From positions 1-64,000 of the IMG/VR virus record IMGVR_UViG_3300013372_003978: 64,000 bases of DNA, one strand, 5' to 3'. The translations under genes and the position numbers were made by a program. Source of the stretch: a virus. The notes beneath the pieces were generated by a model. It made no database searches and was not told the origin of the DNA. It saw only the letters and a program-made list of their open reading frames with translations. This document shows positions 8,135-41,051 of the stretch, piece by piece (position 1 is the stretch's first letter; each line of letters opens with the position of its first letter).

Positions 8135-11100
8135 TTAATAATTATATAATGTTCTAAATAATGATACCATCATAAAATCTAAATCACCACCTTCTATTGT
8201 TGTTGCACTAAATGTATTTGCACTTACTCCATTTGTAAAGGTTGTTGGTCCTGATACTGTACCACCAGTAAATGTACCACCACCAGTTGATGTGCTAAAA
8301 CCAGTTACACTAAATGTACCACCAGTATTATTACTAAACACTGCTGTACCAGCTGAATATGTACCACCAGTAACTCTAATATCTAATGGTAAACCTAGAT
8401 ATGTTGTTGCACTAAATGTACTAGCACTTACTCCATTTGTAAATATTGTTGAACCAGTTACGGTTCCACCAGTAAAACTAACACCTGTTGATGTACTAAA
8501 TCCAGTTACACTAAATGTACCTCCTGTGTTATTACTAAACACAGCTGTACCAGCTGAATAAGTACCACCAGTTACACGCACATCAACAGGAAGATTATAA
8601 TATGTTGTTGCTGATATTGTTGTTGCTGTTAAATTACCATTGATAAGAGTATTACCAGATACATGCAATGCTTGACTTGGATTAACCACATTAATACCAA
8701 TTCTACCTTGTGTTTGTGCGGATATACTTGGAATACCTGTTGTTATTTCATATGTATTTGCTCCAAATAACACACCACCTATATTGATTGAATTTGTTGT
8801 TAATGTAGGTAATGATATATTTGTACCGATAATAATATTATTTGAGCCAATACTGTCTAAAACATCACCTCTACCAACATTATAACCAAATAAATTTGAA
8901 TAACTAGCAATTGTTGCTTGATAACCAGCATTTCTACCAAAGAAATTTGAATGATTAGCATTTGTCGCAACAATACCAGCTAGACTACCAAAGAAATTTG
9001 AATAACTAGCATTTGGTGCATTCAAACCAGCACTATTACCAATGAAAGTTGAACCACTGGCATTGGTTGATTGATAACCAGCACTAGCACCAATAAAATT
9101 TGAAAGACTTGCTTTTGTTGCTTGATAACCAGCTTGATAACCAATAAAAGTTGAACCACTGGCACTTGTTGCATTTTGACCAGCATATTGACCAAAGAAA
9201 TTTGATTGATTAGCATTTGCTGCTTGATAACCAGCAGCACTACCTATAAAGTTTGAATTACTAGCACCAGTTGCTTGATAACCAGCACTTATTCCAAAGA
9301 AATTTGAATTAGTAGCATTTGTTGCACTATATCCAGCTAGATTACCAATGAAATTTGAATAAGATGCATTAGTTGCTTGATAACCAGCAGCATAACCAAA
9401 GAAATTTGATTGATTAGCATAAAATGCACCAGAACCAGCACCAAAACCTAAGAAATTTGAACCATAAGCACTACTAGCTTGATAACCAGCATTATAACCA
9501 AAGAAATTTGAATTATTAGCACCTGTTGCTGCATAACCAGCCTGTTGACCTAAGAAATTTGAATTAGGTGCGTTTGTTGCAAATTGACCCGTACTATCAC
9601 CAAAAAAGTTTGAATTAGAAGCACCTGTTGCGTTATAACCAGCATTCTTACCTATAAAATTTGAGCTAGCAGCGTTGGTGGCACCATTACCAGCTTGATA
9701 ACCCATAAAGTTTGAATAACTAGCAAGTGTTGCCCCATTACCAGCACTACTACCAAAGAAATTTGAATAACTAGCACCTGTTGCACTTGTACCAGCACCA
9801 GCACCAAAGAAATTTGAACGATTAGCATTTGTTGCATTATAACCAGCCTGATTACCAAAGAAATTTGAGTTATTTGCATTTGTTGCTTCATTACCAGCAT
9901 TTCGACCTAAGAAATTTGAGTTATTAGCACCTGTTGCACCATAACCAGCATTTTCACCTAAGAAATTTGAAAATTGAGCACCTGTTGCACCATAACCAGC
10001 AGCACTACCAAAGAAATTTGAACGATAAGCATCATATGCACCAACACCAGCAAAATAACCCATAAAATTTGATTCATAAGCACCTGTTGCTAATCTACCA
10101 GCATTTTTACCAATAAAGTTTGATTGATTAGCACTTGTTGCACTAAAACCAGCTGAATCACCAATGAAATTTGAACCACCAGCGTATGTTGCATAAGCAC
10201 CAGCAGCAGTACCTAAAAAATTTGAATTAGAAGCATCTGTTGCTTGAAAACCAGCCAGAAAACCAAATATTACGCTATTATTTTTAAATCTATTTATTTC
10301 AAAATAATCAACATATGTTGTATTATCACTTGTTCCAGTTATATTTGAACCTAATACGATTGAATTATCACCAGTAACAACACTATTTGAACCAAACACA
10401 AATGCAGGTTTTTGAAATGAAGTAGGTAAATCATAATATGGGCTACCACTAATTGTTATATATGATGTTAATAGTATATTAGCATCAACAATATATGTAT
10501 CAACCCCATCATAATATATGTCTGTTAAAGTATAATCATATAATGTATAGGTATTTCCAACCCCATCATCAATGACAAATAAGCTTTCACTACCATATGG
10601 TCCATAAAAATAATTATACCATTCAGAATATACATCAACACCAGCAAATACAACAGCATAGCTTGCATAATATGGGTCTGATGATGTCATAGTTATACCA
10701 GATATAACAGTTATCTGTGTTTTAACTGGTAATATTTCAAAACCATCGGCTATTGAATTAATACCTAAAGCAACACTATATTGTGAATTAGCAGAATTCC
10801 CACTACCACCAGCCAATGCACCTTTACCACCAGCTAATGAATTACTATTACTTTGAACAACAGAATTTAATCCAGTTCCACCAGACCAATACTCATTACC
10901 AATACTAAAACCACTTATATTAAATGTACCACCTGTATTATTTGTAAATACTGTTGTCCCAAAACCATATGTACCACCAGTAACTCTAATATCGGTTGGT
11001 AAACCTAAATAAGTTGTTGCACTAAATGTATTTGCTGTTAAACCATTAGTAAATAAAGTACTACCAGTAACAGTACCTCCAGTAAATGGTGTTGTAAATC

Positions 11101-14100: not shown

Positions 14101-15550
14101 CAGGACCGACCTTAACAACATAAGTATTCGCAGAAGTAGCACCAGTTATGCTATCAACCGCTTCCTTAACGGAATTATAATCAACATTAGTACTTCCAGT
14201 TAAACCAACTGTTACTAAATTAACAACATTGGTTAAGCTATTAATACTTCTTTGTTCAATAATACCTGTTGATTGATTACGAACTAAAACATCAGTATCA
14301 GTCGTATTTGTGTTAGGAGTAGTGGATAAAGCAAATGTATTAGTGGTAAGTCCATTTGTGAATATTGCTGAACCAGCAACCGTACCGCCACTAAATGGTG
14401 TTGTCAATCCAGTTACATTAAACGTTCCCCCTGAATTATTAGTAAATACTGCTGTTCCAGTTGAATATGTACCACCAGTTACAAATGTATCAAAAATAGT
14501 TCTTGATGATAATTCACCATTAGGACCAGCAACAACCATTCTATCACCACTACCAGCTAATCTAGGTAATATCGTATTTACGTTGTTATCTCTAAATCTA
14601 ATATTACCACTACCATCAGCGATAACAATATTATTTGTTGTGGTTGAAGATAAACCAGTTGGTTTACCAAAAATAGTGTTATTTGAACCATTTATTACAC
14701 CTGATAACGATGTACCAATTATTGTGTTATTTGAACCTGAAACAATACCATCTGTAACATTATTAGAATTAGCCCCAAATAATATATTATCACTTCCTTT
14801 TGTTGCTGAACCTGCATAAAAACCTATTGCGATATTTCTAGAACCAGTATTATTATATAAAGAAAAACCACCTATTGCAACGTTTCTTTCAGCACCAGTG
14901 TTATTTTGCAAAGCAGCTGTACCAATACCTGTATTATAATTACCAGTAGTATTATAATGCAAAGCATATGCCCCAATTCCAAAATTTTGTACACCAGTAG
15001 TATTATATTTTAAACTTCCAGCACCAATACCTGCATTATAATTACCAGTTGTATTAGCACTAAGTGATTGACTACCAAAAGCTATGTTATTATTACCGTT
15101 TGTTATTGAAACTAAAGCATTTTTACCAAAAGATATATTATCACTAAGATTACCATAACCATAATTCCAAATTGTTGAGTTTGAATTATCATATTGTAAA
15201 TGTGGAATATAAGTATAACCAGTTATATTAAATGTACCACCTGTATTATTACTAAATACTGTTGTCCCAGAACCATATGTACCACCAGTAACCCTCACAT
15301 CAATTGGTAAACCTAGATATGTTGTTGCGGAAATAGTAGGAGCATATAATGCCCCACTCATTGTATCACCAGTTCTAGAAATTCTATCCCAACCTATTGG
15401 TAAGATAGAATTAGCGGTTGTACCTGATGTGTATAACATACCATCAGCACTATTTAATGCAATCTCACCTAGTAATAATTGTCCAGGTGATGGAATTTTA
15501 CCTGGTATACTTGAACGTTTTAATAAAAACGTATTAATCCTATTGGCCAT
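8135..15550 (-). CDS. Giant multidomain tail fibre/tailspike (2471 aa)
   Basis: N-terminal KRS..PGKIP...L..GEIALN.ADG anchor motif, NxxIG repeats, two pectin-lyase-like starts (DYNSVKEAVDSI...VGPG and GDFTSVKSAVDSI...VGPG), His motifs (DDHTQY, HASRH), ~27 17-aa repeats and several VTGGTY shaft repeats. Confidence 0.85.
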   Translation of the reverse strand: MANRINTFLLKRSSIPGKIPSPGQLLLGEIALNSADGMLYTSGTTANSILPIGWDRISRTGDTMSGALYAPTISATTYLGLPIDVRVTGGTYGSGTTVFSNNTGGTFNITGYTYIPHLQYDNSNSTIWNYGYGNLSDNISFGKNALVSITNGNNNIAFGSQSLSANTTGNYNAGIGAGSLKYNTTGVQNFGIGAYALHYNTTGNYNTGIGTAALQNNTGAERNVAIGGFSLYNNTGSRNIAIGFYAGSATKGSDNILFGANSNNVTDGIVSGSNNTIIGTSLSGVINGSNNTIFGKPTGLSSTTTNNIVIADGSGNIRFRDNNVNTILPRLAGSGDRMVVAGPNGELSSRTIFDTFVTGGTYSTGTAVFTNNSGGTFNVTGLTTPFSGGTVAGSAIFTNGLTTNTFALSTTPNTNTTDTDVLVRNQSTGIIEQRSINSLTNVVNLVTVGLTGSTNVDYNSVKEAVDSITGATSANTYVVKVGPGVFYEDPITMKSYVDVIGESETNTIIQANNPNTSLIIGADQSMVSDVQIQGCTGTNVAAVFYSSPTIPQLNAIFYVENVRFGSNYTHAKTVGTGGGNCIMQCSNVKYGGYPFTLGFYVTNDGSGVGRMQLRNVTSTNGGVTTTSGLIFAKADQPSCAFIVNGCLLTKATGSAAGTGFWVENGGSLRLTAVNFQRWETGIYVPQIGSAPSIEAIALNFENCTKDVNIIHSGATGKIQGTDNYSKTLININAPLYEVNQDPRIITVAKKGGDFTSVKSAVDSITGSSIDNRFLVSVGPGKFTEDEIDLTGKPYVSVEGSNIITSQIVPNTNTQHIFKIGQNNEISFLALSGAPIGYAAIYVNDIGDYAQAHKISFTDCDTNVWIESHTQDTTFYGEYLDFNGEYSYGTKIIAYNGYGALANMENYYNFPTGTGTTIANSVQGSGATLSVFVGDGIGNGVSGSTNYQIFDYASLNTMSTTSYNWGYAVRVLNNGGPARFDIDSLSIVDSLVWDLSIEHPNTFGTFGGGSSSHVKINNLSDDIYWAFLDVEDGEFEVTRKISVTFQDGTHTDASTLIFEGATMGLIEGGVITHVSGLTFEVSSGFGYLEKTINNGVHMRIDWGNTQITLSANSENYLYFNENEILSTSSNSPDNINNIILGRAVTDSTTVRFIDATPYNAKHTSNLLSTFNRNALGSIYVTGSLVTENATPYHLNISSGDYYFSEDNFLPSGGTNVNFTQYYRDGGAGWITTGTTEVINGYDDNSGFITTLPLSSFTKHTLYVVGDGLNEEYMLVLGQTYYTTLVEVEGGDLPTPPTYFNDSVTSIASIYIQQGFSGITEIQDIRPVIGFKAAGVSASAVHGNLLGLNADDHTQYLLVDGARAMTGNLSMGGNTIFSALTVNGVTVESHASRHQNGGADEIATSTPSASAIPKADTFGKLDGWISDASSSVKGLTRLSVNPLSASVPIAVGDNDSRFLNSFTGGTYSSGTIILNNNTGGTFNITGFTTPFTGGTVTGSTLFTNGLTANTFSATTYLGLPTDIRVTGGTYGFGTTVFTNNTGGTFNISGFSIGNEYWSGGTGLNSVVQSNSNSLAGGKGALAGGSGNSANSQYSVALGINSIADGFEILPVKTQITVISGITMTSSDPYYASYAVVFAGVDVYSEWYNYFYGPYGSESLFVIDDGVGNTYTLYDYTLTDIYYDGVDTYIVDANILLTSYITISGSPYYDLPTSFQKPAFVFGSNSVVTGDNSIVLGSNITGTSDNTTYVDYFEINRFKNNSVIFGFLAGFQATDASNSNFLGTAAGAYATYAGGSNFIGDSAGFSATSANQSNFIGKNAGRLATGAYESNFMGYFAGVGAYDAYRSNFFGSAAGYGATGAQFSNFLGENAGYGATGANNSNFLGRNAGNEATNANNSNFFGNQAGYNATNANRSNFFGAGAGTSATGASYSNFFGSSAGNGATLASYSNFMGYQAGNGATNAASSNFIGKNAGYNATGASNSNFFGDSTGQFATNAPNSNFLGQQAGYAATGANNSNFFGYNAGYQASSAYGSNFLGFGAGSGAFYANQSNFFGYAAGYQATNASYSNFIGNLAGYSATNATNSNFFGISAGYQATGASNSNFIGSAAGYQAANANQSNFFGQYAGQNATSASGSTFIGYQAGYQATKASLSNFIGASAGYQSTNASGSTFIGNSAGLNAPNASYSNFFGSLAGIVATNANHSNFFGRNAGYQATIASYSNLFGYNVGRGDVLDSIGSNNIIIGTNISLPTLTTNSINIGGVLFGANTYEITTGIPSISAQTQGRIGINVVNPSQALHVSGNTLINGNLTATTISATTYYNLPVDVRVTGGTYSAGTAVFSNNTGGTFSVTGFSTSTGVSFTGGTVTGSTIFTNGVSASTFSATTYLGLPLDIRVTGGTYSAGTAVFSNNTGGTFSVTGFSTSTGGGTFTGGTVSGPTTFTNGVSANTFSATTIEGGDLDFMMVSLFRTLYNY
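8860..10275 (-). repeat. Array 1 of 51-bp/17-aa repeats SNF(F/L/I/M)GxxAGxxA(T/S)xAxx (~27 units)
   Basis: Counted from the translation; the DNA core aaatttga recurs every 51 nt. Confidence 0.95.
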
Positions 15551-15611
15551 ATTTATGGTTTATTTGTGTGGCTTCTATATAGAAGATTATTATAATTTAG
15601 GTTATATAACC
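15547..15611 (-). promoter_or_regulatory. Three short hairpins/palindromes in the leader of the giant fibre gene, the last overlapping the AUG
   Basis: GGTTATATAACC (15600-15611), CTTCTATATAGAAG (15572-15585) and CCATAAATATGG (minus strand, 15547-15558). Confidence 0.65.
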
Positions 15612-15612
15612 A

Positions 15613-15627
15613 TTATAATATAAATAT
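15613..15627 (-). promoter_or_regulatory. Putative late promoter motif ATATTTAT
   Basis: Minus strand ATATTTATATTATAA; same core as upstream of other structural genes. Confidence 0.55.
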
Positions 15628-15650
15628 GTAGTAATTAAAGTTTATCCATA

Positions 15651-15675
15651 AAAAAAAGGACCGAAGCCCTTTTTA
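15651..15675 (-). terminator. Rho-independent terminator with C(UUCG)G tetraloop
   Basis: Minus strand AAAAAGGGC-TTCG-GTCCTTTTTTT directly after the GIY-YIG stop. Confidence 0.85.
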
Positions 15676-15676
15676 T

Positions 15677-16447
15677 TTAATCTTTAAATTTCCAAACAAA
15701 CCCACCAGCTGTTTTAGCTTTTCCGTTACAAACGCTACCAACATTACCTATATGAAAACCATCATCCAACACTTGTGATAAAAATTCATATTCTTTAATA
15801 AAAATACCATCTTTAGTGTATTGTTTAACAGCTTTTCTTTTAACACTTATTTTTCCCCACATTGGATTCTTATCTCCCAATTGTCTTTCACCCATTCCAT
15901 ATGCTGGATTCTTATCACCCTCATTAGCTTTTCGTATTTTATTAACAACATCTTCAGGATGTTTACGTCCAGTTTGTGATTCTCGCATTTTTTCTTTAAC
16001 TAAATCAGCTTTATCTTTACCAATTCTTTCTTCCAAAGATACACCTTTTCTTTTTAATGAAAAAACATCTTTTTGTTCTTGAGTCCACTTTTTACCAAAA
16101 TTAGGGTTATTTTCACCACTCATTATTTTACTAGTTTTCACCTTAACATAATCAGACCATTTCATAGTTGATGGGTCTTTCATATTATAATTTAAATCAG
16201 AATTAATTCCACCATATTCATTAATCCAATAAACTTCTCTATTATCTAAATCATTAGTAAGTTCAATATGTTCAAAAATAAATTTATCTTTACCATGTTT
16301 GTTATATGATTTTTGTAAATGTTCATTATGATGTTCATTTTTACCTAAACGATAAAAATGTTCTCGTTCACGTTCATTAAGTCTATCTGATTGACCAATA
16401 TAAACTTTATTATTTGTTAAGTTTGTAATTTTGTAAATACCTTTCAT
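15677..16447 (-). CDS. Free-standing GIY-YIG homing endonuclease with NUMOD3/NUMOD1-type DNA-binding repeats
   Basis: N-terminal GIYKITNLTNNKVYIGQS, catalytic R/E/N pattern (ERE.H, REVYWI, YN), GE.NP.(F/Y/W)G repeats and a C-terminal VKQY...G.FIKEY...KTAGGFVWKF. Confidence 0.92.
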   Translation of the reverse strand: MKGIYKITNLTNNKVYIGQSDRLNEREREHFYRLGKNEHHNEHLQKSYNKHGKDKFIFEHIELTNDLDNREVYWINEYGGINSDLNYNMKDPSTMKWSDYVKVKTSKIMSGENNPNFGKKWTQEQKDVFSLKRKGVSLEERIGKDKADLVKEKMRESQTGRKHPEDVVNKIRKANEGDKNPAYGMGERQLGDKNPMWGKISVKRKAVKQYTKDGIFIKEYEFLSQVLDDGFHIGNVGSVCNGKAKTAGGFVWKFKD

Positions 16448-16475
16448 AATTATTATTTTAAAATTTGTTATAATA

Positions 16476-16502: not shown

Positions 16503-16574
16503 GTAAATATAAGAAAAATAATTTAATTAGTAAATACTTCGGTCAATAATAATTAAAACTAGTAGGTTCCACCG

Positions 16575-27652: not shown

Positions 27653-30637
27653 TTAACCTAATGTAATTGTTTTTGTAATCCCATTAATTCTTATTTTTAA
27701 TCCAGTATCTGTATTTGATTCTAACCAAATATCACCATCATTTGGTGCACTTGGTGCTGGACCAACCTCAAGTTTCATAATAGCACTTGCAGTTGTTGAT
27801 GCAGCAATATGTAAATTTGCTGTTGGATTAACTACATTTATACCAATTCTACCATTTGTTTGTGCTGACATAATTGGATTACCTAATATTGTTCCATATG
27901 TATTTTTTCCAAATAAAACACCGCCAATATTTAGACTATTTGTTGTTCCAGATGGTAATGTTATATTTGTACCAATAATAATATTATTTGAACCTAAATT
28001 ATTAGTACCAAATGTTTTACCAGCACAATAACCAAAGAAATTTGAATAAGATGCATTTGATGCTAGATAACCAGCATTAGTACCAATAAAATTTGAATCA
28101 TTTGCGTATGTTGCATAAGGACCAGCACCCTGACCCATAAAATTTGAACGACTAGCACCTGGTGCACTTTGACCAGCATATGAACCTATGAAATTTGAAT
28201 TTGTTGCACCTGTTGCACTATAACCAGCCCAATAACCAAAGAAATTTGAACGAATAGCATTTATCGCACCATTACCAGCATTACCACCAAAGAAATTTGA
28301 ATTATCAGCATTAGTTGCACCATAACCAGCACTACCACCAACAAAAAATGAACTATTAGCATAAGTTGCATTTTGACCAGCCAGAGAACCTAAGAAATTT
28401 GAATAACTAGCGTTTGTTGCACTTTCACCAGCTTGATAACCAACAAAAAATGAACCTCTGGCATTTGTCGCATTTCTACCAGCCCACATACCAATGAAAT
28501 TTGCCTCATAAGCGGCACTTGCATATTGACCAGTTTCGTAACCAATGAAATTTGCACGATAAGCATTAGTTGCACCATAACCAGCATTATAACCCAAGAA
28601 ATTTGATTGACCAGCAGATGTTGCACCATAACCAGCATTCCAACCTAAGAAATTTGATTGACCAGCACTTGATGCACCATAACCAGCTTGATATCCAAAG
28701 AAATTTGAATTAGAAGAGAATTTTGCACCATAACCAGCATTCCAACCAAAGAAATTTGAATAACTAGCAATTGTTGCACCAGAACCAGCTTGAACACCAA
28801 AGAAATTTGAATTACTTGCACCTGTTGCTAAATAACCAGTTCCAGATAATCCAGTTGAAAATAGACTACTAGTATTTACAATTGTTATTGGTGATGTTGA
28901 ACCGTTACTTCCAGTAGATGCTGATATAGTAACTACATTACCACTTGCATCAACACCAATAGGTTGACCTGCACTTGTTGTAGCTGAACTAGTAAGTCTT
29001 TCTAACCTTAATCCTGATGTATCTGGTGCTTCACTATATATATGAAGTGTATTTGTTGGATTAACAACATTAATACCAATCTTACCTGTTGTCTGTGCTA
29101 CGATGCTTGGGTCACCTCCTGTCGTACCATAAGTACCCGTTCCAAATAAAACACCACCTAAATTAATTGAATTTGTTGTACCTGAAGGTAAACTAATATT
29201 TGTTCCAATAATTATATTATTTGAACCTAGGCTACCTAATATTTCGCCATCACCAACACTATAACCAATAAGTGTTGAATAACTAGCACCTGTTGCTAGA
29301 TAACCAACATTATAACCCATAAAATTTGAATATGGTGCATTTGATGCACCATTACCAGCACCAACACCAAAGAAATTTGAAAAACTTGCATTTTTTGCAT
29401 TATAACCAGCACTATAACCAAAAAAGTTAGAAAAACCAGCACCTGATGCTTGAAAACCAGCAGAATCACCAAAGAAATTTGAACGATAAGCGTTTCTTGC
29501 ACTTTGACCAGCTCTATTACCCATAAAATTTGATTGATTTGCATTATATGCACCATTACCAGCACCCCAACCTAAAAAATTTGAATAACTAGCACCTGTT
29601 GCGGCATCACCAGCATAATATCCAATAAAATTTGAATATGGTGCATTAGTTGCTTGATAACCAGCCCTAGCACCAATGAAATTTGAATTACTAGCACCTG
29701 ATGCTTCATAACCAGCATTCAATCCTAAGAAATTTGAATAATAAGCGTTTGTTGCACTACCACCAGCACCACCACCTAGGAAATTTGATTGATTAGCACC
29801 TGATGCTTGGTAACCAGCACCTTGACCAATGAAATTTGATTGATATGCATTTGTTGCTTGAGAACCAGCTTCTCCACCAAAGAAATTTGAATAAAAAGCA
29901 CCTGTTGCGAGCAAACCAGCTCCATTACCTAAGAAATTTGATTGAGAAGCACCTATTGCACCATTACCAGCATTCAATCCTAAGAAATTTGAATTATTAG
30001 CACCACTTGCTTGATAACCAGCATTTTGACCAAAGAAATTTGATTGATATGCATTAGTTGCACCATAACCAGCTTGCTCACCAAAGAAATTTGAATTATA
30101 ACTATTTGTTGCGTTTCTACCAGCACTAGGGCCAAAGAAATTTGAACCACTGGCATTTAGAGCATTTTCACCAGCTTGTGTGCTAAAGAAATTTGATTGG
30201 CTAGCGTTTGTTGCACCATTACCAGCTGTATTACCAAAGAAGTTTGAATTAGTAGCACTTGATGCTTGCCTACCAGCTTGATTACCTAAGAAATTTGAAC
30301 CACTGGCATTAGGTGCATTATAACCAGCTTGAAGACCAACAACAAACATATCATTAGATAAAGCCTCAGCACCATCACCAATTGCTATAGAACTAGTCCC
30401 TGATGCGATAGGTAATATTGTAGGTGGTGTGTCATTTTCAGCATACCATGCAGGGCCATCATAAAAACCAGTTACATTAAACGTAGCCCCTGTATTGTTT
30501 GTAAAAGTAGTTGTACCAGCAGTATATGTAGCACCAGTAACAAAAGTATTTTCATAATACCTTTGTGATATTTTTAAATTACTATCTAATGATGGATACC
30601 CACCAGCTTTATCTTTATTTAACTTACTTTCAAACAT
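27653..30637 (-). CDS. Tail fibre/adhesin with two 17-aa repeat arrays (994 aa)
   Basis: N-terminal K.KAGGYPSLD motif; two arrays, each closed by GSNNIIIGTNI...GGVLFG...G.IGINVVNPT. Confidence 0.85.
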   Translation of the reverse strand: MFESKLNKDKAGGYPSLDSNLKISQRYYENTFVTGATYTAGTTTFTNNTGATFNVTGFYDGPAWYAENDTPPTILPIASGTSSIAIGDGAEALSNDMFVVGLQAGYNAPNASGSNFLGNQAGRQASSATNSNFFGNTAGNGATNASQSNFFSTQAGENALNASGSNFFGPSAGRNATNSYNSNFFGEQAGYGATNAYQSNFFGQNAGYQASGANNSNFLGLNAGNGAIGASQSNFLGNGAGLLATGAFYSNFFGGEAGSQATNAYQSNFIGQGAGYQASGANQSNFLGGGAGGSATNAYYSNFLGLNAGYEASGASNSNFIGARAGYQATNAPYSNFIGYYAGDAATGASYSNFLGWGAGNGAYNANQSNFMGNRAGQSARNAYRSNFFGDSAGFQASGAGFSNFFGYSAGYNAKNASFSNFFGVGAGNGASNAPYSNFMGYNVGYLATGASYSTLIGYSVGDGEILGSLGSNNIIIGTNISLPSGTTNSINLGGVLFGTGTYGTTGGDPSIVAQTTGKIGINVVNPTNTLHIYSEAPDTSGLRLERLTSSATTSAGQPIGVDASGNVVTISASTGSNGSTSPITIVNTSSLFSTGLSGTGYLATGASNSNFFGVQAGSGATIASYSNFFGWNAGYGAKFSSNSNFFGYQAGYGASSAGQSNFLGWNAGYGATSAGQSNFLGYNAGYGATNAYRANFIGYETGQYASAAYEANFIGMWAGRNATNARGSFFVGYQAGESATNASYSNFLGSLAGQNATYANSSFFVGGSAGYGATNADNSNFFGGNAGNGAINAIRSNFFGYWAGYSATGATNSNFIGSYAGQSAPGASRSNFMGQGAGPYATYANDSNFIGTNAGYLASNASYSNFFGYCAGKTFGTNNLGSNNIIIGTNITLPSGTTNSLNIGGVLFGKNTYGTILGNPIMSAQTNGRIGINVVNPTANLHIAASTTASAIMKLEVGPAPSAPNDGDIWLESNTDTGLKIRINGITKTITLG
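28000..28850 (-). repeat. Array 2 of 17-aa repeats (~16 units)
   Basis: Counted from the translation. Confidence 0.93.
29235..30350 (-). repeat. Array 3 of 17-aa repeats (~21 units)
   Basis: Counted from the translation. Confidence 0.93.
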
Positions 30638-32509: not shown

Positions 32510-32756
32510 ATTTCCCAACCTTTTTAAGGTTATGTTTTTCCAAAAATTCTTTTGGACCCATAGCTTCAATAATTGTTAATTCTGCTGAATCCATAAGTTG
32601 TTTTGCTTTTTCATCAGTAACCGACATAACACATAATTTATGTGTTGCTGGCAACTCTCCAGTTGGTGATAAATCTATTTTTAAAATATTATCATTTTTC
32701 ATTTTTTCTCTTGCTTGAAGAACTTTACCTTCTTCACATAATATACAGATTCTCAT
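32487..32756 (-). CDS. Hypothetical protein (89 aa)
   Basis: ATG start, co-oriented, LSPTGELPATH.LC motif. Confidence 0.65.
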   Translation of the reverse strand: MRICILCEEGKVLQAREKMKNDNILKIDLSPTGELPATHKLCVMSVTDEKAKQLMDSAELTIIEAMGPKEFLEKHNLKKVGKYGRFENI

Positions 32757-32766
32757 ATTTTTGTTA

Positions 32767-35733: not shown

Positions 35734-35737
35734 AGTT

Positions 35738-36361
35738 TTAAATTATAATACCTGTACCTGTTATTGTTGAGTTTCCATTAAATATTACTGCACCAGCAAC
35801 ATTAATTAAACCATCATTTGTTATGTTGCTATCTTTTAGTAATAAATTACCACCGATAAATATTTGTGAAAATTTGTTAAATGTTAAATCACCTATTGTT
35901 ATAGGTGTACCTGTTTGTAATACTAAATCAGTATCTACTAAAACATAATCACCTGAAATTAAAATAGTTTCATCACTTTTTAAAATCTTATTTTGATTTT
36001 CTTCCCAATGTTTTACGTTAGTTGTAAAACCACTAACTTCAATTGAATTACCGTATGAATTAATAAGAGTAGCAATACCAGTATTGTTATTGTATGTACC
36101 ACCAGTTAATCCTGGGTTAGTTGTATAACCACTAATTTCGATTGAATTACCATCTGAATTATTAAGTGTGGTAATACCAGTATTGTTATCGTATGTACCA
36201 CCAGTTAATGATGGGTTAGTAGTATCAATATATGGGGTAATAAAATCAGTTAAACCACTTAACGTCATTTGTTTTGTTTCTCCACTATTTACAATAGGAA
36301 ATACATCACTTAGTGATGGATTATTATTGTATTCAAATGCGGTTATCTTTTTATTAGACAT
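35738..36361 (-). CDS. Virion protein with duplicated LTGGTY repeat (207 aa)
   Basis: MSNKKIT..F...D.FPIV..GETKQ.T N-terminus. The TNP.LTGGTY.NNTGI.TL.NS.GNSIE.SG.TT unit occurs twice (~36020-36225). Confidence 0.75.
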   Translation of the reverse strand: MSNKKITAFEYNNNPSLSDVFPIVNSGETKQMTLSGLTDFITPYIDTTNPSLTGGTYDNNTGITTLNNSDGNSIEISGYTTNPGLTGGTYNNNTGIATLINSYGNSIEVSGFTTNVKHWEENQNKILKSDETILISGDYVLVDTDLVLQTGTPITIGDLTFNKFSQIFIGGNLLLKDSNITNDGLINVAGAVIFNGNSTITGTGIII

Positions 36362-36372
36362 GGTTAGATTTG

Positions 36373-36386
36373 TTTATAATAAATAT
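36373..36386 (-). promoter_or_regulatory. Putative late promoter motif
   Basis: Minus strand ATATTTATTATAAA 11 nt upstream of the ATG at 36361. Confidence 0.55.
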
Positions 36387-36432
36387 GTTATTTAATAATA
36401 AAATTACTTTAAATATGATTAATTTTAAAATA

Positions 36433-38298
36433 TTACCAATTTATTCCGTAACCATCTTGTTGTAATATAAAATATGTGTTTTCTTGTAGTATTAAATTAT
36501 CATCTATAAACCCATATTTATTAGCTTCAGCCGCATAAGCATTTTGAATTTGACATAAAGACATATCACAAATATTAAATTTAAATTGTGATATACCACC
36601 GATAAAACTACCAGCAAAATTTGTTTCGATTGGTAATCCTCTATCTGATAAATCCAAACCTCCAAATGTTTGACTTTCTATCAACCCTTGACTACCACCA
36701 CCTAAACTAAAATTAAATGGAACACCAACTTGTTTAGCTTTATATTCATCAAGTCTTTTACCAATAAACTCTGGGAAATTATATACAGTAAATTTTAACA
36801 TACCATTAATATAAAACTTAAGTTTGCCGTTTCTAGGTTTTGCTAATTTTAAATCACATTCTGATTTATTATCTGCAACATATTTAATCACTATATTATA
36901 CCAATATCTAGGGTCAATTAAATTAGGTATTGAATAAGCTTCATGAACTGTAGCCCCAGTTATGTATTTTCTATCAGCACCATTCGTTATACACGTACCT
37001 GTAACTGTTAATAATCTATATCCAATACTACCATCGGGTTTAATTCTAAAACCTAATGCGTTATCAATTATATCAATATTATAATCAATACTAGTTTCAG
37101 GTGTATTGCGGCCACTAAATGAATAAACGGTTTCATTACCTAAATTATCACCAACACTACCACAAAATGTGGTATTACCACTTGAGGCTCTACCATAAAT
37201 TAAAAATGGATTTTGTTCATTGGTTAATTTTTTTCTAACATTAGCAACTGGAATACCACCACCATTATAAGTATATACTGTTTGAGCACCTAATCCATCA
37301 AGACTATTACCACAACCATTATATACATTATAAACATTTGGTGTTGAACCACTAGTATATATAAGATTAGAATTAATACCACTTAAAGGACTTGGTGAAG
37401 CATCATATGCTCTACCATATATTAAGAATTCATTCGTGATTAAATCAATATCAGTTCTTGGTGGGTCTAACGAAATACCAAGACCATAATCACCAGCAAT
37501 GATAATTTCATCTTCTTTTGGTATTGTACACCATTCACTTACAGTTTCACCACTAGTACAACCACTTGTGTTACAATCAATGGTACAACCAGTATCAGAA
37601 CCTTCCCATTTATTCCAAAATTTATTTTCAGCACGAGTACCCATATAAAAGAAAAAACCACTATTATTTGGGTGCGTATCATTAAGTATTGTATCACCTG
37701 CTGTTGCAAATTGTTTTGTAGTTAACCAAAATTCAGCTACCCACGCATGATTAACTCTAGTTGGTAAAATTTGATAATTTGAACCATCAATTTTATAATA
37801 TCCTTGATAAAAACCACCATAAAGGCTAAGAAAATTTTGAATTAAAGGTGTTGTTATGTCTAGAATAATTTCATGTGGGTATACATAATTACCTGTTGTA
37901 CCTGTTACCATGTGCATATAAAATCTATTATCATTAGCTGGTATAGTCAATGTAGAACCTGTCAATGCCGACAATAAATCTAAATTTAATTTATCGTCAG
38001 GGTCTTTATCAAAAGTTATTAAACCATTGTCAATACCTGTTAAACCAATAGTGTCAAAAGTATAACCAGTATTTACCGAACCATTCCAAGTTACAAGGCT
38101 ATAAATATTATTTGACTCATTATTATTATATATGTTTGAATTATTAAAATCGTACCATACAACAAAACAATCACCTGAAGATAATGGCCCACAATAAGGT
38201 GCAGGACCTTCATCGTTAGCTAAATAAAAATCCCAATAATCACTGTTTGATAATTTTAGGTTTAGTTTATTAAAGTTAAAATTTTTAATATTTCCCAT
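36433..38298 (-). CDS. Large structural protein with split LamG-like fold (621 aa)
   Basis: WVAEFWL, WYNIVIKY, GKLKFYING, FSLGGG and F.GGISQF motifs; C-terminal LILQE...ILQ motif. Confidence 0.65.
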   Translation of the reverse strand: MGNIKNFNFNKLNLKLSNSDYWDFYLANDEGPAPYCGPLSSGDCFVVWYDFNNSNIYNNNESNNIYSLVTWNGSVNTGYTFDTIGLTGIDNGLITFDKDPDDKLNLDLLSALTGSTLTIPANDNRFYMHMVTGTTGNYVYPHEIILDITTPLIQNFLSLYGGFYQGYYKIDGSNYQILPTRVNHAWVAEFWLTTKQFATAGDTILNDTHPNNSGFFFYMGTRAENKFWNKWEGSDTGCTIDCNTSGCTSGETVSEWCTIPKEDEIIIAGDYGLGISLDPPRTDIDLITNEFLIYGRAYDASPSPLSGINSNLIYTSGSTPNVYNVYNGCGNSLDGLGAQTVYTYNGGGIPVANVRKKLTNEQNPFLIYGRASSGNTTFCGSVGDNLGNETVYSFSGRNTPETSIDYNIDIIDNALGFRIKPDGSIGYRLLTVTGTCITNGADRKYITGATVHEAYSIPNLIDPRYWYNIVIKYVADNKSECDLKLAKPRNGKLKFYINGMLKFTVYNFPEFIGKRLDEYKAKQVGVPFNFSLGGGSQGLIESQTFGGLDLSDRGLPIETNFAGSFIGGISQFKFNICDMSLCQIQNAYAAEANKYGFIDDNLILQENTYFILQQDGYGINW

Positions 38299-38300
38299 AG

Positions 38301-41051
38301 TTAAAAGCTTTCTAAATTAGTACGTTTCCATCCTGTACTACTTTTAATATATAAATAGTCATCATCTCTAGTAACGTTACCTAAATTTCCATTGATATCT
38401 GTTGAACCGCTTGGAGTGTAATTAGGCATTGTAATTTTATTTGGTATAAAATCATTATTTGTTGTCCAATTTCCATTCTCATCAGTAATTAACTCCGCAC
38501 CTAAATCAAGACCCATTGCGTGTAATACAGTAATACCACCACCCAAAGCAGTTGTTATATTTCCATTATGATTTAAATCAATATTGTTATCTTCAGCTAA
38601 TATTGTTTGTGTTTGTAAATTTCCAACTAAAGTTGTACCACTAGTTAATTCTTTTATTGCTTCTACTAATAAAGCAACAGTGTTTTCATAATGAACACCC
38701 ATATATTTTTCTGGTGAATTATTATTAACAAACGTTAATTCAGGGACAATACTTTCAACTTCTTGAGCAATAAACCCAATTCTAGTAGGACCATCTCCAT
38801 CAATCCAATCATAACTTACACCTCTAAGTTGTTTAACTTTATCTAAAGCATTTGTTAGCGTTTCAATATTATGTTTTAATCTAATATCAGAAGTATTTGT
38901 TGTTAAAACACCACTAGAAGTATAATATAAAGCACCAGCTGATGTTGCAGCACCAATTGTTCTAATCCTTGCGTTTCCAGATACATCCAATGATTCTGTA
39001 GGTGTAACCACATTAATACCAATTTTACCTGTTGTTTGTGCAGATATACTTGGATTACCTACTATTGTTGAATATGTATTTATTCCAAATAATACTCCAC
39101 CTATATTCATTGAATCTGTTGTTCCAGCAGATAACGATATATTTGTTCCTATTATTATATTATTTGAACCAAGGCTACCTAATACAGTAGCATTACCAAC
39201 ATTATATCCAAATAAATTTGAATTACTTGCATTTGTTGCTTGATAACCAGCATAATATCCAAATAAATTTGACCTACTTGCACCTGTTGCTTGATAACCA
39301 GCTCTAAGACCCAAGAAATTTGAATTAAATGCGTCTGTTGCATAAGCACCAGCATTACCACCAAAGAAATTTGAATATTGTGCGTTTTTCCCATCTTGAC
39401 CAGCACCAGAACCTATGAAATTTGAATTAGAACTACCTGTTGCGTTCCAACCAGCATAAGAACCCAAAAAATTTGAATTAAAAGCGTTATTCGCTCCATT
39501 ACCAGCCCAATAACCCATGAAATTTGAAGCACTAGCATTTATTGCATCTTGACCAGCATTTTGACCTAAGAAATTTGAACCTTGGGCATCCGTTGCACCG
39601 TAACCAGCATTTTGACCTAAAAAATTTGAACGTTGGGCATTTGTTGCTTGATAACCAGCACTATTTCCAAAGAAATTTGAGTTGTTTGAACCAGATGCTT
39701 GATAACCAGCATTAACCCCAAATAAATTTGAATATGTTAATCCAGTCGCATCTTGACCACTCCCAATTAATCCAGTTGAAAATAAACTATTTGTATTTAT
39801 AATAGTTATAGGTGAACTAGAACCTATTATTACCCTTCCACTTGAATCGAAACCTAAATTGTTTATGCTAGTTCCACTTACAAGTGTTTTAATATTTAAT
39901 TGGTCAACGTATGTTGTGTCTGCAACCAAACCAGTTATATTTGCACCTAAAACAATTGTATTACTACCACCAGCAACTGAATAATAACCATGAACAAATG
40001 AAGTAGTTCCAGATGCTGTACTATTATTACCACCAGCATGTGAACTAGTATTCATAGCTCTTGTACTTAAACCTTCAGCATGAGAATAATCACCACCTGC
40101 TATTGTTTCAAATCCTTCAGCATGCGATGTACTACCACTTGCAATACTATAACCTTCAGCATGACTAATACCACCACTTGCAATTGAATCAGCACCTTCA
40201 GCGTGACTATATAAACCACTAGATATTGTTTGATAACCTTCAGCATGTGAAAAACCACCAGAAGCTAATGTACGAATACCTTCAGCATGGTCACCATTTG
40301 TTGTTGCTGATGTAGCATTACCTTCAGCATGTGAATAATCACCAATTGCGTAAGTACCAGAACCCTCAGCCACAGAAAAACTACCACTAGCAACACTAGT
40401 ACCTCCATTTAATGTTGCCGAATTAGGTCCAGTACTAAATACCCAAACAGGTGTTCCGCTCCAACCACCTTTACCTTCAGAATCAACACATACCCATGAA
40501 TTTCCAATTATTGGATTATTTGTAATTATAAGGTCTTGTGTTCTAGTTATACCAGAAACATCATTCCATATTGTTCTACCAGTAAAATCTAGAGTTGAAG
40601 CTGATAAAAAATCAAGTATTTCAGTTTGAACATTCCCAACATAATTTCCACCACCTAAATCAATAAAGCTAAGAGGTGTTATATCAAAAGAAACCCCACT
40701 ATATGCTGACGCAACAATATTACCATCAACTGTTATATAAGATGATGGTACAAAAGCTAAAGCATTTTGTGTAATTCCAGAATTTGATGGTGTAATAGCT
40801 GATAAACTATTAATTGCAATATTCATATCTGGATTATACCACGAATAAACAGTTGTTGCTGAATTACCTGAAAATGTACTTAATACTGTTGATGAACTAT
40901 ATGTAATACCTGTAGTCACTAAATTAGGACCTGTTGGTAATGAGCTAAATGGCACACCAAATGAGGTACCACCAGATAAAACAGTAAATGTTTCTATGCG
41001 TTGTTTAACTTGTCTGTTACTTGAAAAGTCTAATTTTGTTCTAAATGCCAT
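38301..41051 (-). CDS. Tail fibre with YadA-like SHAEG repeats, a 17-aa repeat array and an internal peptidase S74 chaperone domain
   Basis: ~14-aa SHAEG..T.A.G repeats, ~11 SNFxG repeats, and TSDIRLKHNI...LRGVSYDW...GFIAQEVE...V.YE...LLVEAIKEL. Confidence 0.88.
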   Translation of the reverse strand: MAFRTKLDFSSNRQVKQRIETFTVLSGGTSFGVPFSSLPTGPNLVTTGITYSSSTVLSTFSGNSATTVYSWYNPDMNIAINSLSAITPSNSGITQNALAFVPSSYITVDGNIVASAYSGVSFDITPLSFIDLGGGNYVGNVQTEILDFLSASTLDFTGRTIWNDVSGITRTQDLIITNNPIIGNSWVCVDSEGKGGWSGTPVWVFSTGPNSATLNGGTSVASGSFSVAEGSGTYAIGDYSHAEGNATSATTNGDHAEGIRTLASGGFSHAEGYQTISSGLYSHAEGADSIASGGISHAEGYSIASGSTSHAEGFETIAGGDYSHAEGLSTRAMNTSSHAGGNNSTASGTTSFVHGYYSVAGGSNTIVLGANITGLVADTTYVDQLNIKTLVSGTSINNLGFDSSGRVIIGSSSPITIINTNSLFSTGLIGSGQDATGLTYSNLFGVNAGYQASGSNNSNFFGNSAGYQATNAQRSNFLGQNAGYGATDAQGSNFLGQNAGQDAINASASNFMGYWAGNGANNAFNSNFLGSYAGWNATGSSNSNFIGSGAGQDGKNAQYSNFFGGNAGAYATDAFNSNFLGLRAGYQATGASRSNLFGYYAGYQATNASNSNLFGYNVGNATVLGSLGSNNIIIGTNISLSAGTTDSMNIGGVLFGINTYSTIVGNPSISAQTTGKIGINVVTPTESLDVSGNARIRTIGAATSAGALYYTSSGVLTTNTSDIRLKHNIETLTNALDKVKQLRGVSYDWIDGDGPTRIGFIAQEVESIVPELTFVNNNSPEKYMGVHYENTVALLVEAIKELTSGTTLVGNLQTQTILAEDNNIDLNHNGNITTALGGGITVLHAMGLDLGAELITDENGNWTTNNDFIPNKITMPNYTPSGSTDINGNLGNVTRDDDYLYIKSSTGWKRTNLESF
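39170..39765 (-). repeat. Array 4 of 17-aa repeats (~11 units)
   Basis: Counted from the translation. Confidence 0.93.

What the first reader, a model, noticed from the sequence alone, without database searches (positions are those of the whole stretch)
8860..39765. Shared library of ~75 variable 17-aa (51-bp) repeat units across three fibre genes
Seen: four arrays (~27, ~16, ~21 and ~11 units) with a fixed scaffold SNF(F/L/I/M)G-xx-AG-xx-A(T/S)-x-A-xx and three hypervariable dipeptide windows. I found no two identical units by eye, yet the scaffold codons (TCAAATTTC..GGT, GCTGGT, GCAACA) are nearly invariant even at synonymous sites. Each array ends in the same cap (GSNNIIIGTNI...GGVLFG...SAQT.G.IGINVV.P), and a degenerate fifth copy sits in 893..4504. 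Inference: this is a beta-solenoid adhesin whose surface is set by variable residues and diversified by unit-level recombination or gene conversion within and between genes, a DGR-independent receptor-diversification system.
Basis: partly seen in the sequence, partly recalled or inferred. Interest (0 to 1): 0.72.

Follow-up and report, generated by a model that had tools for sequence, protein, structure and literature searches.

The report
Seventeen-residue repeat rods in phage fibres
Three tail-fibre genes of an uncultured freshwater giant phage carry long, perfectly phased arrays of a 17-amino-acid repeat that probably stack into a three-chain rod with a fixed core and a fast-changing surface, and related phages reshape these rods by ordinary duplication and recombination rather than by any special diversity-generating machine.

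Summary
There are 75 units of exactly 17 aa (27, 21, 16 and 11) in three minus-strand genes, with no indel and no two units identical. Each array ends in a paralogous cap, and a degenerate fifth copy lies in 893..4504. Scaffold codons are far more uniform than codon usage predicts (Ser-1 is TCA in 72 of 73). Part of this follows from codon context and T-run avoidance.

Models give one solenoid coil per unit and a confident trimer. Positions 17, 1, 2, 4, 5 and 6 touch neighbouring chains. Positions 7, 10, 11, 14 and 16 are not at the interface.

Inside this genome I found no sign of recent unit exchange. Units are equidistant, and shared blocks and exact tracts do not exceed shuffles.

Relatives do show rapid array turnover:
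- Phages 98% identical in flanking DNA carry 6 versus about 26 units.
- One homologue shares 8 collinear units and then breaks.
- One orthologue has a fresh 6-unit triplication.
- Two 99%-identical phages differ in the array by 5 non-synonymous and 1 synonymous codon changes, all at non-scaffold positions.

The repeat is widespread (at least 994 homologues, many from Patescibacteria genome bins) and has no Pfam model.

Verdict: a new variant of solenoid fibre repeat evolving by conventional modular mechanisms. A dedicated diversification system is not supported.

The parts
8135..15550 (-). gA, a 2471-aa fibre protein carrying array A near its C-terminus
   Evidence: ORF list. No Pfam or PHROG family at the thresholds used. 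Relatives in 13 IMG/VR loci.
8849..10225 (-). Array A: 27 units of 51 nt (gA aa 1776-2234). A 28th degenerate unit lies just upstream.
   Evidence: The extra upstream unit is my own reading of the translation.
8663..8848 (-). Cap A (gA aa 2235-2296)
27653..30637 (-). gB, a 994-aa fibre protein with two array-cap modules and a conserved C-terminal tip
   Evidence: Syntenic orthologues lie next to the family-B DNA polymerase gene in L007, G005 and G001.
29228..30298 (-). Array B1: 21 units (gB aa 114-470)
29042..29227 (-). Cap B1 (gB aa 471-532)
27995..28810 (-). Array B2: 16 units (gB aa 610-881). Units 1-8 (28403-28810) are collinear with homologue P0002.
27809..27994 (-). Cap B2 (gB aa 882-943)
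38301..41051 (-). gC, a 916-aa fibre protein. In order: N-terminal domain, 14-aa SHAEG-type repeats, array C, cap, Peptidase_S74 chaperone domain, C-terminal part.
   Evidence: Orthologues in L024 and L009.
39171..39731 (-). Array C: 11 units (gC aa 441-627)
   Evidence: Modelled.
38985..39170 (-). Cap C (gC aa 628-689). It is intertwined between chains in the trimer model.
38736..38891 (-). Peptidase_S74 intramolecular chaperone domain (gC aa 721-772)
   Evidence: Pfam PF13884, E 1.2e-18, 67.5 bits against a cut-off of 22.
1709..2200 (-). Degenerate array plus cap in gD (893..4504, aa 769-932)
   Evidence: hhalign against profile A1: probability 98.5%, E 2.2e-15.

Best explanation
Each 17-residue unit is one coil of a narrow beta-solenoid, and three chains pack side by side into a trimeric rod.

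The fixed residues build the rod. S1, N2, F3, G5, A8, G9, A12, A15 and the hydrophobic position 4 form the coil core and the three-fold interface. The cap closes the array and intertwines the chains.

Five to seven positions per coil lie on or near the surface. They draw on a narrow Tyr/Asn/Gly/Ser/Gln alphabet and change quickly.

The arrays evolve by conventional means:
- In-register tandem duplication and deletion of units or multi-unit blocks.
- Homologous exchange of whole N-cap/array/cap cassettes, or of parts of arrays, between related phages, with junctions in conserved sequence.
- Accelerated amino-acid replacement at non-scaffold positions.

Scaffold codon uniformity is mostly a by-product of three things: descent of units from one another by repeated duplication, codon-context bias, and avoidance of T runs.

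Shown: the anatomy, the codon statistics, and the turnover in relatives. Modelled: the fold and the trimer. Inferred: that the variable lateral surface binds host-surface structures and that array length tunes the fibre's reach.
For: Anatomy: 75 units, 71 of 71 spacings of 17 aa.

Fold:
- AF2 gives pLDDT 90-98 over the array, with one strand at unit positions 2-4 of every coil.
- The trimer model scores ipSAE 0.95 against a best control of 0.00. The three runs agree in at least 94% of contacts and partner pLDDT is at least 92. In the tool's calibration, 20 of 30 solved pairs and 1 of 23 single chains reached the mark.
- Contacts fall at unit positions 17, 1, 2, 4, 5 and 6 in every coil, and never at 3 or 7-16.

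Surface alphabet: 397 of 525 residues at positions 6, 7, 10, 11, 14, 16 and 17 are Y, N, Q, S or G. In the fibre genes outside the arrays the figure is 2499 of 6408.

Turnover in relatives:
- L007 and G005 are 95-100% identical over L007 nt 1-390 and about 100% identical beyond nt 2700, but only 58-77% identical across N-cap, array and cap. L007 has about 26 units and G005 has 6.
- P0002 shares B2 units 1-8 (127 of 136 aa) and then loses collinearity. All 9 differences are at positions 6, 7, 10, 11, 16 or 17. It is the only 1 of 120 listed homologues with a collinear run of 3 or more units.
- In read-derived contigs, variant pieces over 28366-28721 end near 28409, which is the same junction.
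- L024, a gC orthologue, has a 306-nt (6-unit) block in 2.9 copies at 95% matches. Copies 2 and 3 are identical over 276 nt.
- L042 has neighbouring units identical over their first 39 nt and different over the last 12 nt, including a synonymous site.
- G001 and G005 (99.1% identical) differ in the array at 6 codons, 5 non-synonymous and 1 synonymous, at positions 7, 10, 13 and 14. Three of the six are multi-nucleotide changes, and no scaffold codon changed. Five other open reading frames (ORFs) of the same loci show 11 non-synonymous and 35 synonymous changes (Fisher p 0.008).

Codons:
- Ala before Gly is GCT in 83% of 65 background cases, and Ala before Thr is GCA in 63% of 78.
- TTC precedes TTT in 26 of 28 Phe-Phe units.
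- Relatives use other codon sets: AAC-TTT in L007, TCT in G001, G005 and L024.
Against: No structure has been solved, and the models rest on a 9-row alignment. The handedness of the solenoid could not be read from the tools.

Binding by the lateral surface is pure inference. The C-terminal tip of gB is highly conserved among relatives while the array varies, so the array could be a spacer whose surface is only loosely constrained.

The 5:1 non-synonymous to synonymous count is small and is compatible with neutrality at those positions.

Ser-1 is TCA even in distant arrays from higher-GC genome bins. Descent within a lineage, codon usage and codon context do not explain this.

Within the window, runs of 18 or more identical in-register bases are slightly more numerous than in shuffles: 128 against a mean of 95.8 and a 95th percentile of 124. 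Some old linkage between neighbouring variable windows therefore exists.

In runs X1-X3, pieces inside the arrays match the window with 0 differences. This shows no population hypervariability, but those runs may include the source sample.
Confidence: 0.68

Rival explanations
1. The 75 units form a shared cassette library that the phage actively reshuffles by gene conversion within and between its three fibre genes. That would make it a programmed receptor-diversification system, and the scaffold codons would be kept identical in order to keep units recombinogenic.
For: - All four arrays use the same position-specific codons, TCA-AAT-TTC ... GCT-GGT ... GCA.
- In relative G001 the two array genes differ at position 2: AAT in 5 of 6 units in one gene, AAC in 11 of 12 in the other.
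- The codon uniformity exceeds codon usage and codon context.
- TCA at Ser-1 is conserved across distant lineages.
- L042 shows sub-unit tracts that look like conversion between neighbouring units.
- Units do not cluster by gene.
Against: - The window shows no shared multi-unit block or exact tract beyond shuffles.
- The closest unit pair shares only 45 of 51 nt.
- Array pieces in three runs are identical to the window.
- No recombinase or other dedicated gene is linked to the arrays. The only nearby nuclease is a GIY-YIG/NUMOD3 homing-endonuclease-like gene.
- The longest invariant scaffold stretch is about 15 nt, which is short for efficient homologous exchange. That last judgement rests on my general knowledge, not on a call.
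Confidence: 0.1
2. The arrays are inert length rulers. The rod only spaces the tip domain away from the virion. Surface positions drift nearly neutrally within the limits of solenoid stability, and unit number changes are tolerated rather than selected.
For: - The C-terminal tip after B2 is strongly conserved in L007, L009, L012 and L013 while the arrays differ completely.
- Orthologues work with 6, about 26, or 21+16 units.
- The gC orthologue in L009 has no such array at all.
- A 5:1 non-synonymous to synonymous ratio is close to the neutral expectation.
Against: - The surface alphabet is narrow: 75.6% Y/N/Q/S/G, with hydrophobic residues at 9.9% against 27.5% in the fibre genes outside the arrays. 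That is not free drift.
- Three of six changed codons between 99%-identical phages are multi-nucleotide replacements.
- The codon change rate is 6 of 119 in the array against 46 of 2804 in five other ORFs of the same loci (p 0.018).
Confidence: 0.2
3. Targeted mutagenesis, by a diversity-generating retroelement (DGR) or a similar mechanism, writes the variable codons.
For: - Many variable codons are of the NNT type (AAT, TAT, AGT, GGT, GAT, CGT).
- Whole-codon replacements occur between near-identical phages.
Against: - No RVT_1 match in the 87,687-base record. The same search did find matches in 3 of 14 control genomes.
- No extra, non-coding copy of the unit exists. All 6 matches of the array in the record lie inside the four arrays.
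- CAA (Gln), which is not an NNT codon, accounts for 54 variable codons.
- NNT codons are the preferred codons of this AT-rich genome anyway.
- Known DGR targets are single variable regions rather than 75 units (from my own knowledge, not a call).
Confidence: 0.02

Closest known systems
YadA-like head of trimeric autotransporter adhesins (left-handed parallel beta-roll, Pfam YadA_head PF05658)
   Same: - Short Gly/Ala/Asn-rich repeats, one per layer.
- A trimer with the inner strand facing the three-fold axis, and an adhesive lateral surface.
- Layer number varies between close homologues, and DNA repeats were proposed to allow rapid expansion (passages read in PMC9543794).
- The protein-language-model neighbours of the array include clusters in which 21-28% of members carry YadA_head.
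- BpaC and CbpF heads give the highest sequence identities among the structural matches, 20-21%.
   Different: - The layer is 17 residues, not 14-15.
- No Pfam hit falls on the arrays. The one weak YadA_head hit (18.6 bits, cut-off 25) lies on the separate SHAEG repeats of gC.
- Superposition on adhesin heads is poor (rmsd 7.9-9.7 A), while right-handed beta-helices such as pertactin fit at 2.6 A over 209 residues.
- There is no membrane anchor. The proteins are phage fibres or secreted proteins with an S74 chaperone domain.
T-even phage gp38/gp37 adhesins: conserved glycine-rich motifs separating hypervariable segments
   Same: A conserved structural scaffold alternates with hypervariable receptor-facing segments. 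Recombination within or near the conserved motifs swaps the variable parts, so related phages act as a common library (abstract and passages read in PMC3157838).
   Different: - No sequence or fold relation was tested or is expected.
- gp38 has four variable segments in one small monomeric domain. Here there are 11-27 stacked coils in a trimeric rod.
- Exchange here is documented only by comparing genomes, not by crosses.
Tail-fibre-like proteins with a Peptidase_S74 intramolecular chaperone, including 'tail fiber domain-containing proteins' of Patescibacteria and Bacteroidota genome bins
   Same: - gC carries PF13884, as do many of the 120 listed homologues.
- The same array-plus-cap module occurs in 38 cellular-genome loci. 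By record title, 21 are Patescibacteria-type and 10 are Bacteroidota-type.
- Two such proteins, P0029 and P0032, begin with what look like signal peptides. That is my reading of the sequences.
   Different: gA and gB lack the S74 domain. The array itself has never been given a family model (no hit in Pfam or PHROGs).
Bdellovibrio fibre protein bd2133 (PDB 8ond)
   Same: The end-of-cap motif (G-x-I-G-I-N...P...L-H-V) matches a motif repeated in these fibres (E 0.0013).
   Different: Only this short junction motif matches. The arrays do not.

Membership tests
YadA_head / left-handed parallel beta-roll | Layers of 14 (rarely 15) residues with an invariant Gly at position 8 (PMC9543794, passages read) | tested here: not met
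   All 71 of 71 spacings are 17 residues. There are two invariant Gly, at unit positions 5 and 9.
YadA_head / left-handed parallel beta-roll | Match to Pfam PF05658 above the gathering score | tested here: not met
   gA and gB have no family at E 0.01. gC scores 18.6 bits against a cut-off of 25, at aa 339-365, which is outside the array.
YadA_head / left-handed parallel beta-roll | Left-handed roll that superposes on solved heads | tested here: inconclusive
   UspA1 Z 13.7 at rmsd 9.7 A, CbpF Z 12.4 at rmsd 8.1 A, BpaC Z 11.2 at rmsd 7.9 A. Right-handed helices fit at 2.6-3.0 A. I had no access to coordinates to read the handedness.
YadA_head / left-handed parallel beta-roll | Homotrimer | tested here: met
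   This is a model only: ipSAE 0.95 against a best control of 0.00, at least 94% contact agreement, pLDDT at least 92.
S74-chaperone tail fibre | Peptidase_S74 domain C-terminal to the fibre shaft | tested here: met
   gC aa 721-772, E 1.2e-18. Not present in gA or gB.
Diversity-generating retroelement target | A reverse transcriptase gene in the element | tested here: not met
   No PF00078 match in the 87,687-base record. The record is 26% complete, so absence from the whole phage is not shown.
Diversity-generating retroelement target | A template repeat that matches the variable region except at adenines | tested here: not met
   All 6 matches of array B1 within the record lie inside the four coding arrays.
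Pentapeptide-repeat solenoid | Five-residue sequence repeat, 20 residues per coil | tested here: not met
   Foldseek's top hits are pentapeptide proteins, but at TM 0.22 or less and rmsd 10-14 A. The period is 17.
gp38-type adhesin with glycine-rich motifs and hypervariable segments | Homology to the gp38 specificity domain | not tested
   Used only as a functional analogy, from PMC3157838.

The most novel reading that the evidence does not exclude
The SNFxG array is an undescribed class of 17-residue-coil trimeric solenoid. Giant freshwater phages and Patescibacteria would use it as an evolvable 'sticky rod'. Its length would be set by in-register duplication and deletion. Its lateral Tyr/Asn/Ser/Gly/Gln surface would be under diversifying selection as a multivalent binding face. 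Synonymous sites in its scaffold, notably the deeply conserved TCA at Ser-1, would be held by selection at the DNA or translation level so that units stay exchangeable between genes and genomes.
Probability: 0.15. Interest if true: 0.72.

Novelty: new variant of a known kind. Interest (0 to 1): 0.5.

Why it matters
The repeat has no family model, yet it occurs in at least 994 predicted proteins, including fibres of roughly 300-kb phages and surface proteins of Patescibacteria. A description of the unit, its cap and its register would let annotators recognise these genes.

Near-identical phages differ mainly in these arrays, so the arrays are a natural place to look for host-range or adsorption differences in an uncultured phage group.

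A rigid rod with a fixed core and five or more freely replaceable surface residues per 17-residue coil is also an attractive scaffold for engineered binders.

The unexplained synonymous conservation at Ser-1 is a small, testable puzzle about selection on codons in repeats.

Tried and rejected
- Cultured phages: blastn of gB against 50,697 phage records found nothing. The polymerase has only distant (25% identity or less) matches, in Salinibacter, Rhizobium and other phages.
- A metagenome scan with P0002 found 50 pattern matches, none of them a relative, so I could not see P0002's DNA. I did not use the second scan that was allowed.
I used handles instead.
- Unit-order structure: lag analysis gave only weak signals in array A (lag 7 p 0.008, lag 4 p 0.044, uncorrected over 31 tests).
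- No 4-unit collinearity between any window array and the arrays of L007, L008, L009 or L010. Across 16 comparisons the lowest p was 0.06.
- Donor search: the two short patches that differ between G001 and G005 have no copy elsewhere in the loci I held. Only parts of those genomes were held.
- Read laying: the many joints between arrays in X5 have short sides or were laid at less than 95% likeness, so I do not count them. One X5 contig that 'goes back 153' at 28324 could be a 3-unit difference, but one side is only 83% alike.
- Uncovered stretches of the laid region are no evidence of anything.
- Foldseek against PDB gave no clear match.
- Literature: a full-text search for the unit's pentapeptides (SNFFG, SNFIG, SNLFG-type strings) returned 21 unrelated papers. 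A search combining tail fiber, tandem repeats, gene conversion, host range and repeat number returned 3 unrelated papers. A search on tail fiber, 17-residue repeat and beta-helix found no paper containing '17-residue repeat' among the 15 listed.
- N-x-S/T sequons are frequent in the arrays (33 in 75 units). This follows from the scaffold itself, so I draw nothing from it.
- gA relatives: my motif scan found arrays in 1 of 13 gA-related loci (L030, with 9 + 19 units). The loci were cut at 3 kb of flank, so absence in the others is not established.
Full report
CONTEXT

The window is the first 64 kb of an 87,687-base IMG/VR virus record that CheckV rates 26% complete. A relative sharing 71-77% nucleotide identity over about 10 kb of syntenic genes lies on a 306-kb record rated 86% complete. 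The phage is therefore probably a giant phage of roughly 300 kb. G+C is about 30%.

The minus strand from 185 to 41051 carries a run of fibre-like genes, interrupted by several other genes:
- a GIY-YIG/NUMOD3 endonuclease gene;
- an SNF2 helicase gene;
- a family-B DNA polymerase gene.

Runs that hold parts of gB are labelled as freshwater and other aquatic metagenomes.

THE OBSERVATION

It holds in every particular.

Tandem Repeats Finder reports four period-51 arrays. In translation they are 27 units (gA), 21 and 16 units (gB) and 11 units (gC). All 71 of 71 within-array spacings are exactly 17 residues. No two of the 75 units are identical as protein or DNA, and the closest pair shares 45 of 51 bases.

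Positions 1, 2, 3, 5, 8, 9, 12 and 15 are nearly invariant (entropy 0-0.7 bits). Positions 6, 7, 10, 11, 14, 16 and 17 carry 2.4-3.6 bits. Positions 4 and 13 are intermediate.

Each array ends in a 62-residue cap. The four caps align without gaps at 72-75% identity. gD aa 769-932 is a degenerate array plus cap (hhalign 98.5%, E 2.2e-15).

A search of the whole record with array B1 found only these four arrays (6 of 6 matches lie inside them).

SCAFFOLD CODONS

They are far more uniform than the genome's codon usage allows (counts, p values):

| Position | Codon count in arrays | Comparison in non-array genes | p |
|---|---|---|---|
| Ser-1 | TCA 72 of 73 | 32.5% of 1303 Ser codons; 29% of 107 Ser-before-Asn | about 1e-34 to 1e-37 |
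| Ala-8 | GCT 69 of 69 | see codon context below | 3e-6 after context |
| Gly-9 | GGT 74 of 75 | 74% of Gly codons | 4e-9 |
| Ala-12 | GCA 62 of 69 | see codon context below | 5e-7 after context |
| Phe-3 | TTC 50 of 70 | 10% of 905 Phe codons | not computed |

Two ordinary effects explain part of this:
- **Codon context.** In non-array genes, Ala before Gly is GCT in 83% of 65 cases, and Ala before Thr is GCA in 63% of 78. This is the same direction as GCT-GGT at positions 8-9 and GCA-ACA at 12-13. The array values still exceed these rates.
- **T-run avoidance.** TTC is used before TTT in 26 of 28 Phe-Phe units, but in only 10 of 24 units where the next codon starts with A or G.

Much of the remaining pattern looks like descent of units from one another, for two reasons. 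First, related phages show the same kind of within-array uniformity with other choices: AAC-TTT in L007 and TCT at Ser-1 in G001, G005 and L024. Second, array L008 is heterogeneous.

One item stays unexplained. TCA at Ser-1 recurs in distant arrays from higher-GC genome bins: 10 of 10 in L064 at 42% G+C, and 5 of 7 in L065 at 48%.

WHAT THE UNIT IS

AlphaFold2 was run on gC aa 424-720 with a 9-row alignment of paralogous and related modules.
- It gives pLDDT 90-98 over the array, with one short strand per unit at unit positions 2-4.
- The part after the cap is not confident in the monomer.

Three copies were then folded together.
- The score is ipSAE 0.95, against 0.00 for the best of three controls. 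The three runs agree in at least 94% of contacts, and partner pLDDT is at least 92.
- In the tool's calibration, 20 of 30 solved pairs and 1 of 23 single chains reached the mark. My own alignment and three copies depart from that calibration.
- In every coil the inter-chain contacts fall at unit positions 17, 1, 2 on one side and 4, 5, 6 on the other. They never fall at 3 or 7-16.
- The cap and the segment after it become intertwined.

Of the seven hypervariable positions, two (6 and 17) therefore sit at chain contacts, and five (7, 10, 11, 14, 16) are neither core nor interface.

Structure searches give only generic solenoid matches:
- Foldseek finds nothing better than TM 0.22.
- VIA-align finds beta-helices. 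Pertactin scores Z 15.9 at rmsd 2.6 A over 209 residues.
- Trimeric-autotransporter heads score Z 11-13.7 with the highest identities (20-21%) but rmsd 7.9-9.7 A.

I could not read the handedness. The arrays match no Pfam or PHROG family. The language-model neighbours include clusters in which 21-28% of members carry YadA_head.

The surface alphabet is narrow. Of 525 residues at the seven variable positions, 397 are Y, N, Q, S or G, against 39% in the fibre genes outside the arrays. Hydrophobic residues make up 9.9%, against 27.5%.

IS THERE EXCHANGE INSIDE THIS GENOME?

I found none that is recent.
- Mean unit identity is 0.673 within arrays and 0.669 between them.
- The nearest neighbour is in the same array for 0.287 of units, against 0.263 in shuffles (p 0.32).
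- The best 2-, 3- and 4-unit shared blocks (0.833, 0.81, 0.784) equal the shuffled maxima (0.831, 0.803, 0.785).
- The longest in-register exact match is 29 nt, against a null mean maximum of 30.7. Runs of 18 nt or more are only slightly more numerous than in shuffles (128 against 95.8, 95th percentile 124).

The units 'intermix across genes' only in the sense that their variable sites are saturated.

Contigs of three runs from one study contain array pieces identical to the window: 28113-28508, 29224-29524, 29358-29595, 29977-30266 and 39199-39718. Those runs may include the source sample.

WHAT RELATIVES SHOW

1. **Cassette replacement.**
   - L007, G005 and G001 are 98-99% identical to one another over 9.7-9.9 kb.
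   - Their gB orthologue has about 26 units in L007 and 6 units in G005 and G001.
   - Between L007 and G005, identity is 88-100% over L007 nt 1-390. It is 58-77% through N-cap, array and cap. It rises from about nt 2221, at the end of the cap, and is about 100% beyond nt 2700.
2. **A junction inside an array.**
   - P0002 shares B2 units 1-8 (15, 16, 16, 17, 17, 17, 15 and 14 of 17 residues) and then has unrelated units. It has 18 units in all and a gA-like C-terminus.
   - It is the only 1 of 120 listed homologues with a collinear run of 3 or more units.
   - By my reading, the high similarity starts at the end of the B1 cap.
   - Variant contigs in the laid runs cover 28366-28721 with 5-18 differences and stop near 28409. 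That is the unit 8/9 boundary.
3. **Fresh duplication.** The gC orthologue in L024 has a 306-nt, 6-unit block in 2.9 copies at 95% matches. Copies 2 and 3 are identical over 276 nt.
4. **Sub-unit tracts.** In L042, three neighbouring units are identical over their first 39 nt and differ only in the last 12. In a second pair, the differing part includes a synonymous change at position 15. This points to a junction at the conserved GCA-ACA block rather than to point substitution. L042 looks like a hairpin-type misassembly in its second half.
5. **Module gain and loss.**
   - The gC orthologue in L009 has about 25 SHAEG-type 14-residue units and no SNFxG array, cap or S74 domain.
   - The gA orthologue in L030 has 9 + 19 units in two modules, against 27 in one.
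   - G001 has two array genes at E 1e-5.
6. **Substitution pattern.**
   - G001 and G005 differ in the 357-nt array by 11 bases in 6 codons, 5 non-synonymous and 1 synonymous, at positions 7, 10, 13 and 14. Three are multi-base codon replacements, and no scaffold codon changed.
   - Five other ORFs of the same loci, the polymerase and helicase genes among them, show 11 non-synonymous and 35 synonymous changes in 2804 codons. Fisher p is 0.008, and p is 0.018 for the codon change rate.
   - All 9 differences between P0002 and B2 units 1-8 lie at positions 6, 7, 10, 11, 16 or 17.

No collinearity remains between the window's arrays and those of L007, L008, L009 or L010 (16 comparisons, lowest p 0.06).

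RANGE OF THE FAMILY

At least 994 proteins match gB at E 1e-5 or better. The search scored only the 7999 best candidates, so this is a lower bound. Source names include 'tail fiber domain-containing protein' from Paceibacterota bins and 'trimeric autotransporter adhesin', and many carry PF13884.

A scan of species-representative genomes with the cap motif gave 38 loci. By record title, 21 are Patescibacteria-type (Saccharibacteria, Nomurabacteria, Paceibacteria, Minisyncoccia), 10 are Bacteroidota-type and 7 are other. The grouping of these names into phyla is from my own knowledge.

No paper in the searched library mentions the unit's motif.

INTERPRETATION

The most economical reading is a trimeric solenoid rod. 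Its core and interface are fixed, and its surface and length change quickly. The change comes through duplication and deletion, cassette exchange at conserved junctions, and rapid replacement at exposed positions.

This is the logic already described for T-even gp38 and gp37 adhesins (PMC3157838, abstract and passages read). It was also proposed for layer-number changes in adhesin heads (PMC9543794, passages read).

The specific claim of a programmed, intragenomic gene-conversion library is not supported by this genome. Whether the variable face binds anything, or the rod is only a spacer, remains open. The conserved tip of gB argues for the spacer view. The restricted alphabet and the multi-base codon replacements argue for a selected surface.

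SCORES

The object is real, regular and widespread, and it lacks a family description. Its evolutionary mechanism is conventional.
- Interest: 0.5.
- Novelty: new variant of a known kind.

Noticed in passing
window 47372-53411, and onward to about 61630 (+ strand): A block of very low G+C (22-26%) encodes several glycosyltransferases: a GT2/GT4 fusion, two GT2-like proteins and one GT61-like protein. It also encodes a methyltransferase, a class II aldolase, a uridine-kinase-like protein and a DUF1796 peptidase-like protein. A dUTPase and a GMP-reductase/IMPDH-like gene lie just upstream. These genes could decorate the Ser/Thr/Asn-rich fibres, or they could alter the host surface. Neither was tested.
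   Followed up: partly
window 40070-40260 (gC aa about 250-390), and L009 4956-6956: gC has a second repeat type, 14-residue SHAEG-type units, which gave a weak YadA_head hit. The orthologue in L009 has about 25 of these units where the window has about 8, and it lacks the SNFxG array altogether.
   Followed up: partly
window 14907-15056 (gA aa about 150-260): The N-terminal part of gA carries another repeat of roughly 17 residues, of the N-x-[AG]-[IF]-G-x-x-[AS]-L-x-x-N-T-[TG]-G type. This is the commoner fibre repeat, and the SNFxG unit may be a sister form of it.
   Followed up: no
window 5086-7647 (-): An 853-aa protein made almost entirely of DUF285 repeats (Pfam E 3e-165), with higher-order DNA periods of 75, 150 and 171 nt. 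This is a second, unrelated repeat protein in the fibre cluster.
   Followed up: no
window 15677-16447 (-): A GIY-YIG plus NUMOD3 homing-endonuclease-like gene sits between gA and the next fibre gene.
   Followed up: no
all arrays; also L030, L042, L046, L055, L057, L064, L065: Ser-1 of the unit is encoded by TCA in most arrays, even in distant genomes with up to 48% G+C. Other synonymous scaffold sites, such as position 15, are mixed. No explanation was found.
   Followed up: partly
gA, gB and gD N-terminal and C-terminal parts; L009 and L021 proteins: A motif of roughly 27-31 residues (T-G-G-T-Y ... F-T-N-N-T-G-G-T-F ... V-[ST]-G-F) recurs in several fibre proteins. It is duplicated once more in G001 than in G005, a 93-nt insertion.
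   Followed up: no
L042 (4-kb contig titled Gammaproteobacteria bacterium): The contig turns into its own reverse complement half-way along, so it is probably a hairpin misassembly. Its codon set equals the window's, and it is more likely phage than gammaproteobacterial DNA.
   Followed up: partly
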